NCBI RefSeq assembly: GCF_058153355.1
Contig: NZ_CM177019.1
DNA: 64,000 nt
Reading direction: 5' to 3' (one strand)
Position 1 is the first letter of the stretch. The number at the start of each line of letters is the position of its first letter. The notes beneath the pieces were generated by a model, which saw nothing but the letters and a program-made list of their open reading frames with translations, was not told the DNA's origin and did not search any database. This document shows positions 29,162 through 33,847 of the stretch, in pieces. Made by a program: the position numbers and the translations under genes.

Positions 29162-32100
29162 TCAGAACGACCAGTTCACACCAGCCACCGCGTTCCACGG
29201 GGATTCCACACCGGCACCATGGCTATACCCCACCCCGAGATGCCCGCTTAACGAACTGCTGAATGAGGCTTTAATACCTGCCTGGTATATTCCACGTCTG
29301 CCCGACAAATCATTGACAAAATTACCGTCATTATTCACTTTCACCCGGTTATCATCGACAAATTCTTTGCGCACAGCCGCCTTCAGCCACGGCTCAACTT
29401 CCATGCCGTTCCCCAGACGCATGTTGTAACTCAGCGTTGCGCCCAGTTCACGATATATACTGCGGGTATCGACTGATTTCGATTCCATACCATTGGATAA
29501 ATGATATTCGGGGTTGTCAGCGGTGAACCCCGTTAACGATGCATACGGCGTCAGGTTCCAGTTACCATCGGTAAATCGCATCCCGGTTTCAATGTGACCG
29601 CCCAGCCCGTTGCTGCGATAACTGCCGCTGGCGGCTCCACCGCTGCTCATTTTACCGGCTACGTTACTTTCAAAGCGGTTCAGCTTCACGATACCGTCCA
29701 GATAGAAACCACTTTCATGTTCCCAGCTGACATAGCCCCCCAGAGAATAACTGCCCACACTGCCATGTCCTCCACGATCAAAACCGATATGTGAATGGGA
29801 ATAACCCATAAAAGCGCCCAGCGTCGCAATCCCCTCAGGAATACCATTACGGCTATCGATCCCCACCGTCATTCCGGTCAGCGTCTGCTCAAACCCGGCA
29901 CCCGCATCGGTGGTGACATTATTACGGGTGTTATACGTCGTCCCCCAGACATTATTGTTGTGTGGACTCGCTTTCATTATGTTCAACCGCTCGCGAATAC
30001 TGTTTAGCTCAGCATCAAAGACCAACGGTAATGTTGCTGCCATATTGAGTACGGCTGCCGTAGAAGGCGTGATGCGTTTCTCCGGGACGGGTGTCGGCGT
30101 TGGATCGGGAGTCGGGTCTGGTTTCGGAGCCGGTTTTGGGTCTGGTTTTGGATCCGGTTTCGGATTTGGGTTGGGGTCCGGGTTGGGTTTGACATCATTG
30201 GTCAGGTTCCAGTTGCTGTTGCCGTCGCTTTTCAGGACATACTCATAGGTCCCAAGATCAACGAAACCGCCGGTATTACCCAGCGTAAACGAAGCATCCC
30301 CTCCCCCTGTTTTCACCAGCGTCATCGCGTCGTCAGACTGAGGGCTGACGCCGGTATCCTGAACAAAGATTTTAAAATTGCCAGTGGCGTTGTTGTTGAC
30401 GACCAGTTGATCGCCCCGGGAGCCTGCAACGTTGGTATGCAGGTAGAAATTACCGCTGCCGGAAAGTTCACTGGTGGTCAGCGTATTGTAGATACCGTTA
30501 GTTGTGGCAGGCGCTGCTGTTTGTGCTGATAAATAAACATCACCGTCGTTGAGGAGCAAACTGTTTACTCTATATTCGCAGTTGCTGGTGCCTGCACAGG
30601 AATTATTGCTGTTAAGCCAGACACTGCCCCGGCTGGCAGCCGTCAGGTCGGCAAGCGTCGTATCGACGCCATTTCCGATAGTTAATGTCGCGCTATCGGT
30701 AATCCGGACCACCCCTTCAAGTTTAACTGGCGTAACATTATCCCGTGGCGTCATTAACGACAGGCTTCCTGTCGCGCCACTGACCGATGCATCCGCCAGC
30801 GTACCTGCGTAGACGATTGCCGTCCCGCCAGCGACCTGTAGATCTTCTGCCCGGGCCAGAGCCTGAAACTCATCTTTTGACCGACCAAGGGTATATTGCC
30901 CACCGGAATTAACCGTGGTGGCGAAGTCCTGCCCCAGGTTTTGCATTGCCCCACCGTTGCCAACCGTGGAATCGCGAGCTTCGGTACCTGCTAATACCAA
31001 TAAATTACCGCCATTTTCCAGCAGCACATTGGTCGCTAAATTTCCGGCAATGGAAAAGGTGCCGTACTGGTGAGTACCGCTGATTTCAATACCGTTAGCC
31101 GTGCTCGTCTGGAGAGCGGCACCGCTGTTCTGGATGATATCTGTCGCTTTGCCATTATCGTTGACTGTCAGCGTACCGCCTTCATTAATCGTTGTTTTTA
31201 CTGCCTCACCGTTAGCCGAAACTGTTTGTATTCCGCCGTCGTTAATCATTGTCTCATTCGCCACACCCTCGACGATTTGTTCACCGCCGGTAAGCATCGT
31301 GCCAGTCGCAGTGGCTTTTGTTTTGACGATCTCCCGTCCGCCCGCATTGACCTGTGTTTTGGCGGAAGTGGTGTCTGACTCCACGGTTAACACGCCGCCA
31401 TTTGCCAGCAGGATATTGTTCGCCGCATCCTGCTCGATGCTGAACGCGACGCCATCAGCGCGTGTCCCTGTGACCCGCGTCGCCCTGGTGGTTGCCACCA
31501 GCGCGCCCTGGCTACTCTGCTGTATCCCCGTAGCGCTGCCTTTCTCCCGCACATCGAGTGTGCCGCCGTCATTAAGTACCGAGTTTTCAGCCAGACCGCC
31601 CTCATTAACTACCTGTGAACCGCCATTAATAATGGAACCTTCCGTTGTCCCGTTTGCCATAATTTGTTGTAGGCCAGAGACGATATCGGTATTGATCGCC
31701 TTACCATAATTCTGAACGGTTTGCGTGCCGCCTTTGATGTGCGTTTTATCTGTTGACCCACCATCAACAATTTGTTCACCACTTTCGATATTTGCCTCAG
31801 TGGCTAAACCATATACCGTTTGCTTGCCACCTTTGATATTTGCTTTATCAGAAGTGGCACTGGCATATATTGTTTGGGTGCCCGCACTATTGAGTACAGT
31901 GCCAACATCTTTTCCATAAACATCCATTTTGCCGTTGGCATTAATAATCGTATCAACTGCCCGGGAACCAGTAACGACTGTTAATGAGCCAGCGTTTTCC
32001 AGCACTACATTTTTAGCTTCTGAATTCCTGATGTAGAAAGCATCACCAAAACTGTTGGTTCCTTCGATAAGTGTTCCGGAAGTCGTGGAAGCAATTAATG

Positions 32101-33847
32101 CGCCGCCGGATTGTTGCTCAACATGCTTAGCCTCACCACCGTCCTGAACCTCCAGAACGCCACCATTATTAAGTCTGGTGGTATCTGTTTTAGCCTCCTT
32201 CTGGACAATCAGCTTACCGCCAGCATCAACGGTAGTATTTTTCGCCGTGGTTTTAGCCACTACCGTCAGTTCGCCGGTATTTTCCAGCACAACATAATTA
32301 GCCTCCCCTCCGGTAATAGTGAAGTGAGAGAGCTTGTTGTATCCTTCAATATCAGTCCCTGCGCCCGTGTTGGCAACTAAAGCACTGCCCGTCTCCTGGT
32401 TAACCCCATGTGCGATACCACCGGTATAGACAATCAGCGAGCCTCCGGCGCTAATATTGCTGCCAGTTGCCGTACCATCTTTCTCAACAACCTGCCGGCT
32501 CCCGGAGGAGATATTTGTCGTGTCAGCTTTCCCGCCGCTCTTGATATTTTGTGTTCCGCTGTTGATATTGGTTCCCGTGGCAATACCATGATTATTTATA
32601 TTCTGTGTGCCACCATTAATTATGGTATTGGTCGCGTTTCCGGCAACATCCATAACGCCGCCATTATCTATTCGGGTCGCATCAGCTTTAGCATTCGTTA
32701 AAACTGACATTGTTCCTTTATCTTTAATAATCGTCTTATTTGCCGAACCATATACGTCTAAATGACCACCGTTTTCCAGCAACACATTGTCTGCCACGTT
32801 ATTGTGAATAGAGAATGCCCCTTCACTATTCGTACCGCTCACCGTCGACCTGTCAGTCATTGCTTTTAAAGCCGCGCCATCGTGCTGGGTAACATTCGTT
32901 GCCGTGCCCTCTCTAACATCAAGCACGCCACCGGAATATATTTCAATAACATTCGAGGTGCTCCTGCTATCAACAATTTGCGTCCCACCAGAATAGATCG
33001 TGGTAGTGTGCGCCGTTGACGTGTTTTGCAGCGTCTGCATTCCTCCATTTTTAATGGTGGTTATTTGTGCAGTGCTTGAATCAACATCCTGTCGACCACC
33101 ATCTATTGTGGTGTCCAGCGCATGGCTCTTAATTGTTCTTTGGTCACCTCCATTTTTAATGATAGTGTTTTCTACAATACTCGAATCTACATACTGTCGG
33201 CCCCCATCTATTGTTGTGTTCGTTGCCAGACTTCCTTGTGTGATGTTCTGAGAACCAGATGTATTTATCGTCGTACCGTCAACATGCCCCTGAGCTGTTA
33301 CTGTTTGTTTACCACCATCAATGACAGTCCCGTTTGCTCTCCCTCCTTCGACGTATGAATTACCATTCTTAATTATCGTGCCATTGCTGGTACCATCCTT
33401 ATAAATGTACTGATTGCCACCCTCGATTAACGTGCCATTGCTGGTACCACCGTTATAAACTTGCTGATTGCCACTCGCGATTATCGTACCGCTAGAATTC
33501 CCACCATTATAAATTACCTGTGTACCCCCATGAAGGATTGTATTATTAGCTTGCCCCTGATAATTGTTATGGTTTGCTACATCTTGTTGTCCACCCATTT
33601 CAATAATACTTCCATTAGACACCCCACCAAATACAGTCTGGTGGCCGTGATTAATGATATGAGTATCATTAGTTGTCCCCCGTTCATCTACTATTTGCTC
33701 GCCATCCACAGTTTCACCATTTACGATACCAGTAACGATTGATGTGAAAGCAGCCTCTCCAGGCTGGGCATATATCAAGGCAGATATCAATAAGGAAAGT
33801 ACTGAACGGCGAAAATAATAGCGACTGGTCCTGTTCATAAATTTCAT
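29162..33847 (-). CDS. Large AIDA-I/Ag43-like type Va autotransporter adhesin (intact)
   Basis: Extended signal peptide MKFMNRTSRYYFRRSVLSLLISALIYAQPGEA, long passenger of Gly/Thr/Asn-rich beta-helix repeats, Pro-rich linker, C-terminal beta-barrel ending ...GVNWSF. The track ORF extends to 33967; the start was placed at the internal Met that precedes the signal peptide. Confidence 0.85.
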   Translation of the reverse strand: MKFMNRTSRYYFRRSVLSLLISALIYAQPGEAAFTSIVTGIVNGETVDGEQIVDERGTTNDTHIINHGHQTVFGGVSNGSIIEMGGQQDVANHNNYQGQANNTILHGGTQVIYNGGNSSGTIIASGNQQVYNGGTSNGTLIEGGNQYIYKDGTSNGTIIKNGNSYVEGGRANGTVIDGGKQTVTAQGHVDGTTINTSGSQNITQGSLATNTTIDGGRQYVDSSIVENTIIKNGGDQRTIKSHALDTTIDGGRQDVDSSTAQITTIKNGGMQTLQNTSTAHTTTIYSGGTQIVDSRSTSNVIEIYSGGVLDVREGTATNVTQHDGAALKAMTDRSTVSGTNSEGAFSIHNNVADNVLLENGGHLDVYGSANKTIIKDKGTMSVLTNAKADATRIDNGGVMDVAGNATNTIINGGTQNINNHGIATGTNINSGTQNIKSGGKADTTNISSGSRQVVEKDGTATGSNISAGGSLIVYTGGIAHGVNQETGSALVANTGAGTDIEGYNKLSHFTITGGEANYVVLENTGELTVVAKTTAKNTTVDAGGKLIVQKEAKTDTTRLNNGGVLEVQDGGEAKHVEQQSGGALIASTTSGTLIEGTNSFGDAFYIRNSEAKNVVLENAGSLTVVTGSRAVDTIINANGKMDVYGKDVGTVLNSAGTQTIYASATSDKANIKGGKQTVYGLATEANIESGEQIVDGGSTDKTHIKGGTQTVQNYGKAINTDIVSGLQQIMANGTTEGSIINGGSQVVNEGGLAENSVLNDGGTLDVREKGSATGIQQSSQGALVATTRATRVTGTRADGVAFSIEQDAANNILLANGGVLTVESDTTSAKTQVNAGGREIVKTKATATGTMLTGGEQIVEGVANETMINDGGIQTVSANGEAVKTTINEGGTLTVNDNGKATDIIQNSGAALQTSTANGIEISGTHQYGTFSIAGNLATNVLLENGGNLLVLAGTEARDSTVGNGGAMQNLGQDFATTVNSGGQYTLGRSKDEFQALARAEDLQVAGGTAIVYAGTLADASVSGATGSLSLMTPRDNVTPVKLEGVVRITDSATLTIGNGVDTTLADLTAASRGSVWLNSNNSCAGTSNCEYRVNSLLLNDGDVYLSAQTAAPATTNGIYNTLTTSELSGSGNFYLHTNVAGSRGDQLVVNNNATGNFKIFVQDTGVSPQSDDAMTLVKTGGGDASFTLGNTGGFVDLGTYEYVLKSDGNSNWNLTNDVKPNPDPNPNPKPDPKPDPKPAPKPDPTPDPTPTPVPEKRITPSTAAVLNMAATLPLVFDAELNSIRERLNIMKASPHNNNVWGTTYNTRNNVTTDAGAGFEQTLTGMTVGIDSRNGIPEGIATLGAFMGYSHSHIGFDRGGHGSVGSYSLGGYVSWEHESGFYLDGIVKLNRFESNVAGKMSSGGAASGSYRSNGLGGHIETGMRFTDGNWNLTPYASLTGFTADNPEYHLSNGMESKSVDTRSIYRELGATLSYNMRLGNGMEVEPWLKAAVRKEFVDDNRVKVNNDGNFVNDLSGRRGIYQAGIKASFSSSLSGHLGVGYSHGAGVESPWNAVAGVNWSF

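What the first reader, a model, noticed from the sequence alone, without database searches (positions are those of the whole stretch)
29162..33847. Intact 1601-aa autotransporter adhesin where K-12 (from memory) has only pseudogene fragments
One uninterrupted reading frame encodes signal peptide, long beta-helical passenger, Pro-rich linker and beta-barrel. I recall the corresponding K-12 locus as disrupted autotransporter fragments (ycgH/ycgI), so this allele may be the functional ancestral form. This would be a candidate adhesin or biofilm factor sitting beside the BluF/BluR-ymg-pdeG biofilm circuit.
Basis: partly seen in the sequence, partly recalled or inferred. Interest (0 to 1): 0.4.

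Follow-up and report, generated by a model that had tools for sequence, protein, structure and literature searches.

The report
Intact YpjA-like autotransporter adhesin beside minE
This is a real, intact surface-adhesin gene of a well-known E. coli family (YpjA/EhaD); K-12's ycgI is its leftover tail, ycgH is an unrelated neighbour, and about 8% of sequenced E. coli keep a version at this site, so it is ordinary.

Summary
The open reading frame is real and intact, on the minus strand at 29162-33838. It most likely encodes 1558 aa. The "1601 aa" figure is the mechanical ORF counted from an upstream GTG.

It is a classical type Va, AIDA-I-type autotransporter: signal peptide, AIDA repeats, pertactin-type autochaperone, Pro-rich linker and beta-barrel.

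- **K-12 ycgI:** it is exactly the last 345 bp of this gene. A clean 4361-bp deletion removed the rest, and at least 4533 of 5426 complete E. coli genomes share that junction.
- **K-12 ycgH:** it is not part of this gene. It is a separate autotransporter with its own signal peptide and barrel, at another intergenic site that is empty in this window. It shows no detectable similarity to this gene.
- **Relation to YpjA/EhaD:** the protein is 88.7% identical to K-12 YpjA, which K-12 keeps intact elsewhere. In a carrier strain the two paralogs are 98-100% identical over the 3' 3.7 kb and 71-85% at the 5' end, which indicates gene conversion.
- **Ancestry:** E. albertii has an intact autotransporter at the same syntenic site, so a gene here is ancestral.
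- **Frequency:** 18 of 5426 genomes carry this long allele, and 423 retain at least the C-terminal third of the gene beside minE (all four inspected are intact).

Function (adhesion or biofilm) is inferred by homology only. Interest is low.

The parts
29162..33838 (-). Coding sequence of the autotransporter: 1558 aa plus a TGA stop.
   Evidence: ORF list and translation. GAGG lies 9 nt before ATG 33838. Homologs all begin MNR.... RefSeq calls the gene from this ATG in NZ_CP074749.
33752..33838 (-). Predicted Sec signal peptide, aa 1-29: MNRTSRYYFRRSVLSLLISALIYAQPGEA|AF.
   Evidence: Read directly from the sequence: a basic n-region, a 12-residue hydrophobic core, and a small-residue c-region. 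It is conserved in YpjA and the E. albertii gene. No signal-peptide predictor was run.
32969..33751 (-). Hypervariable N-terminal (distal) part of the passenger, aa 30-290, with repeat-unit indels between alleles.
   Evidence: 65-76% aa identity to YpjA here, against 93-100% for the rest of the protein. 71-76% nt identity to the same-genome ypjA in R32_14_1F. PDB sequence match to an Ag43-family beta-helix, 7ko9, at residues 49-363 (E 1.5e-24).
30569..32968 (-). Main beta-helical passenger made of AIDA 19-residue repeats, aa 291-1090. This part is homogenised with ypjA.
   Evidence: PF16168, 10 stretches, and TIGR04415, 13 stretches. Ag43 and TibA crystal-structure sequences match (E 1e-30 to 7e-24). 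98-100% nt identity to ypjA of the same lineage.
30200..30568 (-). Pertactin-type autochaperone region, aa 1091-1213.
   Evidence: PF03212, E 5.4e-45. Pertactin 1dab matches residues 1091-1214.
30023..30196 (-). Pro-rich (PNPDP/KPDP) linker, aa 1215-1272.
   Evidence: Seen in the translation. Low-complexity match to PF05887, below its cut-off.
29165..29950 (-). C-terminal beta-barrel translocator, aa 1297-1558, ending ...NWSF.
   Evidence: PF03797, E 1.8e-45. TIGR01414, E 5e-97. BrkA barrel 3qq2 matches (E 1.4e-23) and the Vag8 barrel matches.
29162..29506 (-). The only piece of the gene that survives in K-12, as pseudogene ycgI (b4521).
   Evidence: blastn of window against K-12. 340/353 identical, with a 1-bp gap. 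The K-12 frame is broken. UTI89 carries the same 344-bp remnant.
29507..33867 (.). 4361-bp segment deleted in K-12 and most E. coli. It runs from 29 bp upstream of the start codon to codon 1444.
   Evidence: Both flanks abut K-12 1223564. The junction has only 1 nt of microhomology. The junction is found in at least 4533 of 5426 genomes.
29153..34219 (.). Cassette paralogous to the ypjA locus, from 381 bp upstream of the start to 9 bp past the stop.
   Evidence: One blastn alignment to K-12 2783110-2778137, 90.0% over 5082 columns. ypjA hits in thousands of genomes start and end at the same query positions.
33839..34441 (-). AT-rich (36.7% GC) upstream region or 5' leader. It contains the equivalent of K-12 ymgJ (about 33983-34168), whose frame is broken by stop codons here. 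There are no GATC sites.
   Evidence: The only promoter-like hexamer pair (34227-34199) is no more than chance predicts.
35164..35294 (.). Empty site between ymgD and ymgF, where K-12 carries the separate autotransporter pseudogene ycgH (3060 bp including its flanks).
   Evidence: blastn of window against K-12. E. albertii also lacks ycgH here.

Best explanation
The gene is an intact classical (type Va) AIDA-I-type autotransporter. It is a paralog of the known E. coli adhesin YpjA/EhaD, and it sits at the ancestral minE-proximal site whose deleted remnant in K-12 is ycgI.

**Shown here**
- The domain architecture.
- Positional identity with ycgI, and the exact K-12 deletion.
- ycgH is unrelated.
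- 88.7% aa identity to K-12 YpjA.
- An intact syntenic gene in E. albertii.
- Recombinational homogenisation with ypjA over the 3' ~3.7 kb, while the first ~290 residues stay divergent.

**Inferred from established knowledge of type Va secretion and of the Ag43/AIDA-I/TibA group**
- The protein is exported by Sec.
- The C-terminal barrel is inserted into the outer membrane by BAM.
- The passenger is threaded out C-terminus first and folds onto the pertactin-type autochaperone into a long beta-helix.
- The exposed helix mediates adhesion to surfaces or to other cells and so promotes biofilm, as reported for overexpressed YpjA/EhaD.
- The variable N-terminal tip would set specificity.
- Like other K-12 autotransporter adhesins, it is probably poorly expressed in laboratory culture. 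The upstream region is AT-rich, but expression was not tested.
For: - **Architecture:**
- **Start codon and intactness:**
- **ycgI is the 3' remnant, with a 4361-bp deletion:**. The junction is shared by at least 4533 of 5426 genomes.
- **Paralogy with ypjA:**. The carrier strain R32_14_1F holds both genes intact.
- **Gene conversion:** within R32_14_1F, identity between the two copies jumps from 0.71-0.85 to 0.98-1.00 near window 32900-33100.
- **Ancestral site:** in E. albertii GCA_032539325 the order is ymgF-ymgD-ymgG-ymgI-AT-minE-minD-minC, and homology is continuous across both gene ends.
- **Function of the family:** YpjA is placed with the biofilm-forming group 4 adhesins, with the mechanism stated to be unknown (PMC9289746). 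YpjA/EhaD is reported to enhance biofilm in O157:H7 (PMC12547504).
Against: - There is no expression, surface-display or phenotype data for this paralog.
- The promoter scan found nothing above chance.
- Self-association has not been demonstrated even for YpjA (PMC9289746).
- Scores against the Ag43 and AIDA-I equivalog models are far below their cut-offs (330 and 280 bits against 1200), so mechanisms cannot simply be transferred from those proteins.
- The direction of the gene conversion is unresolved. Whether the long 1558-aa allele or the 1124-1134-aa allele is older is also unresolved.
- N-terminal sequences do not sort cleanly by locus.
Confidence: 0.8

Rival explanations
1. The long allele is not a retained ancestor. 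It is a secondary reconstruction: a lineage that carried a shorter or damaged minE-side gene was repaired or extended by recombination with ypjA, either its own or an imported copy. The present gene would then be a chimera of a local 5' end and a ypjA-derived body.
For: - The 3' 3.7 kb is 98-100% identical to the same-genome ypjA, while the 5' 1.2 kb is 71-85%.
- From residue ~291 on, the repeat layout matches K-12 YpjA without large gaps.
- The other minE-side alleles inspected lack two blocks totalling about 1.3 kb.
- Homology arms to ypjA exist on both sides even in K-12.
Against: - Conversion could equally have run from the minE copy into ypjA.
- The 5' part that K-12 lacks (33868-32990) is not ypjA-like, so it must come from a gene at this locus or from a third source.
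- E. albertii has a comparably long gene (1475 aa) at the site.
Confidence: 0.3
2. The reading frame is intact but the gene is functionally silent: a cryptic adhesin, never or rarely expressed, on its way to the deletion seen in most E. coli.
For: - At least 83% of genomes have deleted it, and O157:H7 has a different truncation. This suggests weak selection.
- The upstream region is AT-rich, with no convincing sigma-70 site.
- From memory, not tested here: K-12 ypjA, ycgV and yfaL give phenotypes only when artificially expressed.
Against: - A 4.7-kb frame stays open in 18 genomes from goat, dog, pig, cattle and human sources.
- It is also open in the three shorter-allele genomes inspected and in E. 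albertii (a cluster of 252 member sequences).
- Neutral decay would have broken so long a frame.
Confidence: 0.3
3. Assembly artefact: a chimera produced by collapsing the near-identical 3.7 kb shared by ypjA and the ycgI locus.
For: The two loci share 3.7 kb at >=98% identity in this lineage, which is a classic cause of misjoins.
Against: - The gene is continuous with locus-specific sequence at both ends.
- Eighteen independent complete genomes show the same structure at 99.1-99.7% identity.
- R32_14_1F has both loci fully assembled, each with its own distinct 5' end.
Confidence: 0.02

Closest known systems
YpjA / EhaD (E. coli K-12 b2647; EHEC EhaD)
   Same: 88.7% aa identity over the whole length. 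It has the same domain order, the same Pro-rich linker and the same barrel. Even 381 bp of upstream DNA is shared. In the carrier lineage the C-terminal ~1270 residues are 97-100% identical.
   Different: The chromosomal site differs: minE-ymgI here, against the CP4-57/pinH-ypjB region for ypjA. The N-terminal ~290 residues are only 65-76% identical and differ in repeat number. Carrier genomes hold both genes.
K-12 pseudogene ycgI (b4521)
   Same: It has the same position and the same flanks. It equals the last 345 bp of this gene at 96% identity.
   Different: ycgI lacks 4361 bp, including the ribosome-binding site, the start codon, the whole passenger and part of the barrel. It also carries a 1-bp frameshift.
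K-12 pseudogene ycgH / intact YcgH (ECIAI39_1904 family autotransporter adhesin)
   Same: It is also a type Va autotransporter, and it lies in the same 5-kb neighbourhood.
   Different: It is a separate gene between ymgF and ymgD, absent from this window and from E. albertii. It has its own signal peptide, an AC_1 autochaperone and its own barrel. It shows no detectable sequence similarity to this gene. It coexists intact with the minE-side gene in TUM14771.
Ag43 / AIDA-I / TibA (self-associating autotransporters)
   Same: AIDA-type repeat beta-helix, a pertactin-type autochaperone and a 12-strand-type barrel. Ag43 and TibA crystal-structure sequences match at E 1e-30 to 7e-24.
   Different: - It scores far below the Ag43 and AIDA-I equivalog cut-offs, with about 31-36% identity to TibA-like proteins.
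- There are no GATC sites upstream, so no Ag43-type Dam/OxyR switch.
- No adjacent heptosyltransferase gene.
- Self-association is untested.
E. albertii syntenic autotransporter (P0010, 1475 aa)
   Same: Same site and same orientation between ymgI and minE. DNA homology runs through both gene ends. The barrel is 77% identical and the linker 85%.
   Different: Overall identity is only 52%, and the passenger is 40-62% identical.

Membership tests
Classical (type Va) autotransporter | C-terminal autotransporter beta-barrel domain | tested here: met
   PF03797, E 1.8e-45 at residues 1300-1539. TIGR01414, E 5.3e-97. The BrkA barrel 3qq2 aligns to 1276-1558.
Classical (type Va) autotransporter | N-terminal Sec signal peptide | tested here: met
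   Judged by inspection only: a basic n-region, the hydrophobic core SVLSLLISALIY, and GEA|AF. Conserved in homologs. No predictor was available.
Classical (type Va) autotransporter | Passenger with an autochaperone next to the linker, and a C-terminal aromatic residue | tested here: met
   PF03212, E 5.4e-45 at residues 1094-1216. The protein ends ...NWSF.
Classical (type Va) autotransporter | Passenger actually displayed on the cell surface | not testable with these tools
   Needs expression plus protease shaving or immunofluorescence.
AIDA-I-type / self-associating autotransporters (Ag43, AIDA-I, TibA) | AIDA-type ~19-residue repeat beta-helix | tested here: met
   PF16168, 10 stretches, E 9e-139. 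TIGR04415, 13 stretches. Sequence matches to Ag43 and TibA structures.
AIDA-I-type / self-associating autotransporters (Ag43, AIDA-I, TibA) | Orthology to Ag43 or AIDA-I (NCBIfam equivalog cut-off) | tested here: not met
   NF033177 scores 330 bits against a cut-off of 1200. NF033176 scores 280 bits against 1200.
AIDA-I-type / self-associating autotransporters (Ag43, AIDA-I, TibA) | Self-association leading to autoaggregation | not testable with these tools
   Not shown even for YpjA (PMC9289746).
AIDA-I-type / self-associating autotransporters (Ag43, AIDA-I, TibA) | Dedicated adjacent heptosyltransferase (aah/tibC type), as in AIDA-I and TibA | tested here: not met
   The neighbours are minE on one side and ymgI, ymgG and ymgD on the other. 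The rest of the genome was not examined.
YpjA/EhaD | Full-length high sequence identity to K-12 YpjA | tested here: met
   88.7% over residues 4-1561 against 1-1526. RefSeq names the shorter minE-side alleles ypjA.
YpjA/EhaD | Location at the ypjA locus (between the CP4-57 end/ypjF and pinH-ypjB-ypjC-ileY) | tested here: not met
   The gene lies between minE and ymgI. The carrier strain R32_14_1F has a separate ypjA at the canonical locus. It is therefore a paralog, not the ortholog.
YpjA/EhaD | Promotes adhesion or biofilm when expressed | not testable with these tools
   Literature exists only for YpjA/EhaD itself.
Parent gene of K-12 ycgI | Same flanks, with ycgI collinear with the gene's 3' end | tested here: met
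Parent gene of K-12 ycgH | Sequence similarity and shared position with ycgH | tested here: not met
   No tblastn or blastn hit. It occupies a different intergenic site. ycgH has its own barrel. Both genes are intact together in TUM14771.

The most novel reading that the evidence does not exclude
The two paralogs (minE-side gene and ypjA) may work as a two-copy adhesin system. In this reading, gene conversion keeps the secretion scaffold identical (the barrel, the linker and most of the beta-helix). The distal ~290-residue tip is free to diversify and to be exchanged, giving carriers two binding specificities on one scaffold. The minE-side copy might also respond to the neighbouring BluF/BluR-Ymg-PdeG low-temperature biofilm circuit.
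Probability: 0.12. Interest if true: 0.4.

Novelty: new member of a known kind. Interest (0 to 1): 0.15.

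Why it matters
The practical value is mostly clarification.

- **Origin of two K-12 pseudogenes.** ycgI is the stump of a YpjA-like adhesin lost through one 4.36-kb deletion that most E. coli share. ycgH is an independent autotransporter.
- **Origin of ypjA/ehaD.** It suggests that ypjA/ehaD arose as a duplicate of the ancestral minE-side gene.
- **A possible miscount.** RefSeq names the minE-side gene ypjA in some genomes, and the two genes share most of their sequence. Surveys that score ypjA presence may therefore count two different loci. This was not checked against any published survey.
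- **Concerted evolution.** The locus is a tidy example of concerted evolution between adhesin paralogs.

None of this changes what is known about how such proteins work.

Tried and rejected
- **Species-representative genome scan.** The scan with the protein returned only two short contigs from a Collinsella MAG, which look like E. coli contamination.
- **Whole-protein homolog search.** Repeat words swamped it: only 8000 candidates were scored, and full-length YpjA was not even listed. Its one useful product was the E. albertii cluster P0010.
- **Exact-sequence look-up.** Neither start variant of the protein is in the collection.
- **Literature searches.** Searches for ycgI or ycgH together with "autotransporter" found only passing mentions. 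No paper in the held library describes the intact minE-side gene.
- **Promoter scan upstream.** Nothing above chance.
- **Idea that ycgH plus ycgI are two halves of one gene split by an insertion of ymgD-ymgJ.** Rejected. ycgH has its own barrel, shows no similarity to this gene, and both genes are intact together in TUM14771.
- **Idea that the window comes from a non-coli Escherichia.** Rejected. Core segments are 96-98.7% identical to E. coli genomes, closest to the carrier strains and then to ST648-type strains.
- **Locus-specific signature in the first 125 residues.** Not supported: identities are 66-82% in all pairings.
- **Structure prediction.** Not run. Sequence matches to solved Ag43, TibA, pertactin and BrkA structures already fix the folds.

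Full report
**1. The observation**

The ORF list shows one uninterrupted minus-strand frame, 29162..33967, of 1601 aa from a GTG.

The next ATG, at 33838, is the likely start (1558 aa). GAGG lies about 9 nt upstream of it. K-12 YpjA, the E. albertii gene and the other alleles at this locus all begin MNR.... RefSeq calls the 99.4%-identical gene in strain R32_14_1F from that codon.

- ten AIDA repeat stretches;
- a pertactin-type domain;
- a Pro-rich stretch;
- the autotransporter beta-domain.

NCBIfam agrees. It places the protein far below the equivalog cut-offs for Ag43 and AIDA-I. Sequences of solved Ag43, TibA, pertactin, BrkA and Vag8 structures match the expected segments.

**2. Relation to K-12**

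Aligned with MG1655, window 24550-29506 and window 33868-35163 both end at K-12 base 1223564. K-12 therefore lacks exactly window 29507-33867, which is 4361 bp.

The deletion removes the ribosome-binding site, the start codon, the whole passenger and part of the barrel. What remains is the annotated pseudogene ycgI. It equals the last 345 bp of this gene at 96% identity, with a 1-bp frameshift. The junction shows only one base of microhomology.

ycgH is a different matter:
- It lies between ymgF and ymgD, where the window has just 131 bp.
- Its reading frame, broken by an in-frame stop, carries its own signal peptide, an AC_1 autochaperone and its own barrel domain.
- Neither tblastn nor sensitive blastn finds any similarity to the window gene.
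- In TUM14771 an intact ycgH-family gene and an intact minE-side autotransporter sit about 1.3 kb apart. In 19KM1831 and 2020N21-110-15 ycgH, cut by the locus edge, lies beside an intact minE-side gene.

The two K-12 pseudogenes are therefore remnants of two different genes.

**3. What the gene is**

In most genomes the best match is not at this locus. It is ypjA/ehaD, at about 93% nucleotide identity. Against K-12, one alignment runs from 384 bp upstream of the ypjA start codon (381 bp upstream of the window gene's) to 9 bp past the stop. It corresponds to window 34219-29153 and shows 90.0% nt identity; the proteins are 88.7% identical over their full length.

The carrier strain R32_14_1F has both genes intact: the minE-side gene (1558 aa) and ypjA at its usual place next to ileY-ypjC (1557 aa). 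Within that one genome the two copies are 71-85% identical over the first ~1.2 kb. Near window 32900-33100 the identity jumps to 98-100% and stays there for the remaining 3.7 kb (the window sequence gives the same picture).

K-12 ypjA is only 94-98% identical to the window over that same stretch. The near-identity inside one genome is therefore recent gene conversion, not slow divergence.

The first ~290 residues are the variable part. They are 65-76% identical between paralogs and differ in the number of repeat units. They vary about as much between alleles of the same locus.

**4. Which copy is original**

E. albertii has an intact 1475-aa autotransporter in the same place and orientation. 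The gene order is ymgF-ymgD-ymgG-ymgI-AT-minE-minD-minC, with no ycgH. It belongs to a cluster of 252 member sequences.

DNA homology to the window runs continuously from both flanks into the gene ends, across the points where the similarity to the ypjA locus stops. In K-12, ypjA is bordered by the end of prophage CP4-57 and a recombinase pseudogene.

The inference is that the minE-side gene is in its original context and ypjA is the derived duplicate. This is an inference, not a demonstration.

**5. Population survey**

Counts are among 5426 complete E. coli genomes.

| Allele state | Genomes |
|---|---|
| Whole 5.4-kb region at 99.1-99.7% identity, annotated as an AIDA repeat-containing protein | 18 |
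| minE-adjacent gene retaining at least the last ~380 codons | 423 |
| K-12 deletion junction (lower bound, because divergent lineages split the short query) | at least 4533 |
| O157:H7-type 747-bp remnant, followed by unrelated DNA including ompT | not counted |

Three sampled genomes from the second row, outside the long-allele group, carry intact 1124-1134-aa versions that RefSeq names ypjA. Relative to the window, the TUM14771 allele lacks two repeat blocks totalling about 1.3 kb. UTI89 (phylogroup B2) has the same 344-bp remnant as K-12.

The window itself is an E. coli of a lineage poorly represented among complete genomes. Its core segments are at best 98.7% identical to any of them. 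The closest are the long-allele carriers, followed by ST648-type strains.

**6. How it most likely works**

What is shown is the architecture. The rest is inferred from the established model of type Va secretion:
- export across the inner membrane by Sec;
- insertion of the barrel by BAM;
- passage of the passenger to the surface, C-terminus first;
- folding on the autochaperone into a long beta-helix.

A review places YpjA among the biofilm-forming group 4 adhesins, together with Ag43, AIDA-I and TibA. It states that the mechanism is unknown and that no structure exists (PMC9289746). YpjA/EhaD is also reported to enhance biofilm in O157:H7 (PMC12547504).

By homology, this paralog is most likely a surface adhesin or biofilm factor whose distal tip sets what it binds.

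Its regulation is unknown:
- The upstream 600 bp is 36.7% G+C.
- It has no GATC sites, so no Ag43-type Dam/OxyR switch.
- It has no long homopolymers.
- It has no promoter-like site beyond chance.

Adjacency to bluF/bluR-ymg-pdeG is real but says nothing about co-regulation.

**7. Verdict**

The case is less remarkable than suggested. K-12 keeps a paralog that is 89% identical, and about 8% of complete genomes keep at least the C-terminal third of a gene at the site (all four inspected are intact), already annotated in RefSeq. It is a new member, a positional paralog, of a known adhesin family. The concerted evolution with ypjA is a minor point of interest. Interest is low.

Noticed in passing
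window 33983-34168 (minus strand): The K-12 small protein gene ymgJ (b4594) lies inside what is the 5' leader or promoter region of the intact autotransporter. In this window its frame is broken by stop codons. The same stretch is also part of the cassette duplicated at the ypjA locus. ymgJ may therefore be an incidental ORF rather than a conserved gene.
   Followed up: partly
window 1-6137: A cluster absent from this position in K-12. It encodes a periplasmic binding protein, a FecCD-type permease, an ABC ATPase, a methyltransferase, a quinolinate-phosphoribosyltransferase-like protein and a TonB-dependent receptor. It looks like an accessory metal or siderophore uptake island.
   Followed up: partly
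window 10892-12862 (ORF 11521-12933, plus strand): Between dadX and cvrA, where K-12 has only a partial IS1414, the window encodes a 470-aa protein with leucine-rich repeats and no other Pfam domain.
   Followed up: no
window 41849-48279: Prophage e14 is absent next to icd. This interval, between ycgX and icd, has no match in the K-12 region compared. It holds a TrkH-family cation transporter gene (44206-45681, minus strand) and a 458-aa ORF with no Pfam match (46616-47992, minus strand).
   Followed up: no
L006 and L007 (JAIJJM010000485.1 and JAIJJM010000899.1): Two short contigs binned into a Collinsella sp. MAG encode fragments 69-76% identical to this Escherichia autotransporter. This is almost certainly enterobacterial contamination of the bin.
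   Followed up: no
L013 (E. coli O157:H7 Z1626), locus 12143-16714: O157:H7 keeps a longer 747-bp tail of the minE-side autotransporter. After it, the ymgI-ymgG-ymgD genes do not appear. Instead there is an HTH protein gene, ompT, a hydrolase gene and IS66 elements. E. albertii also has an omptin gene close to ymgF.
   Followed up: no
L012 (UTI89 assembly NZ_CP062228), locus 15739-17096: In this UTI89 record an IS1 sits between ymgF and ymgA. pdeG, ymgC and ariR are missing, so part of the Ymg/PdeG biofilm circuit is deleted there.
   Followed up: no
window 25000-27071 and 37072-40067: Even against the closest carrier genome (R32_14_1F), these two flanking patches (the pliG-ycgJ region and the ymgC-ariR-ymgA-ycgZ-bluF region) drop to 92-96% identity, while the 10 kb between them is 98-100% identical. 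This is a mosaic pattern that suggests recombination tracts around the locus.
   Followed up: partly
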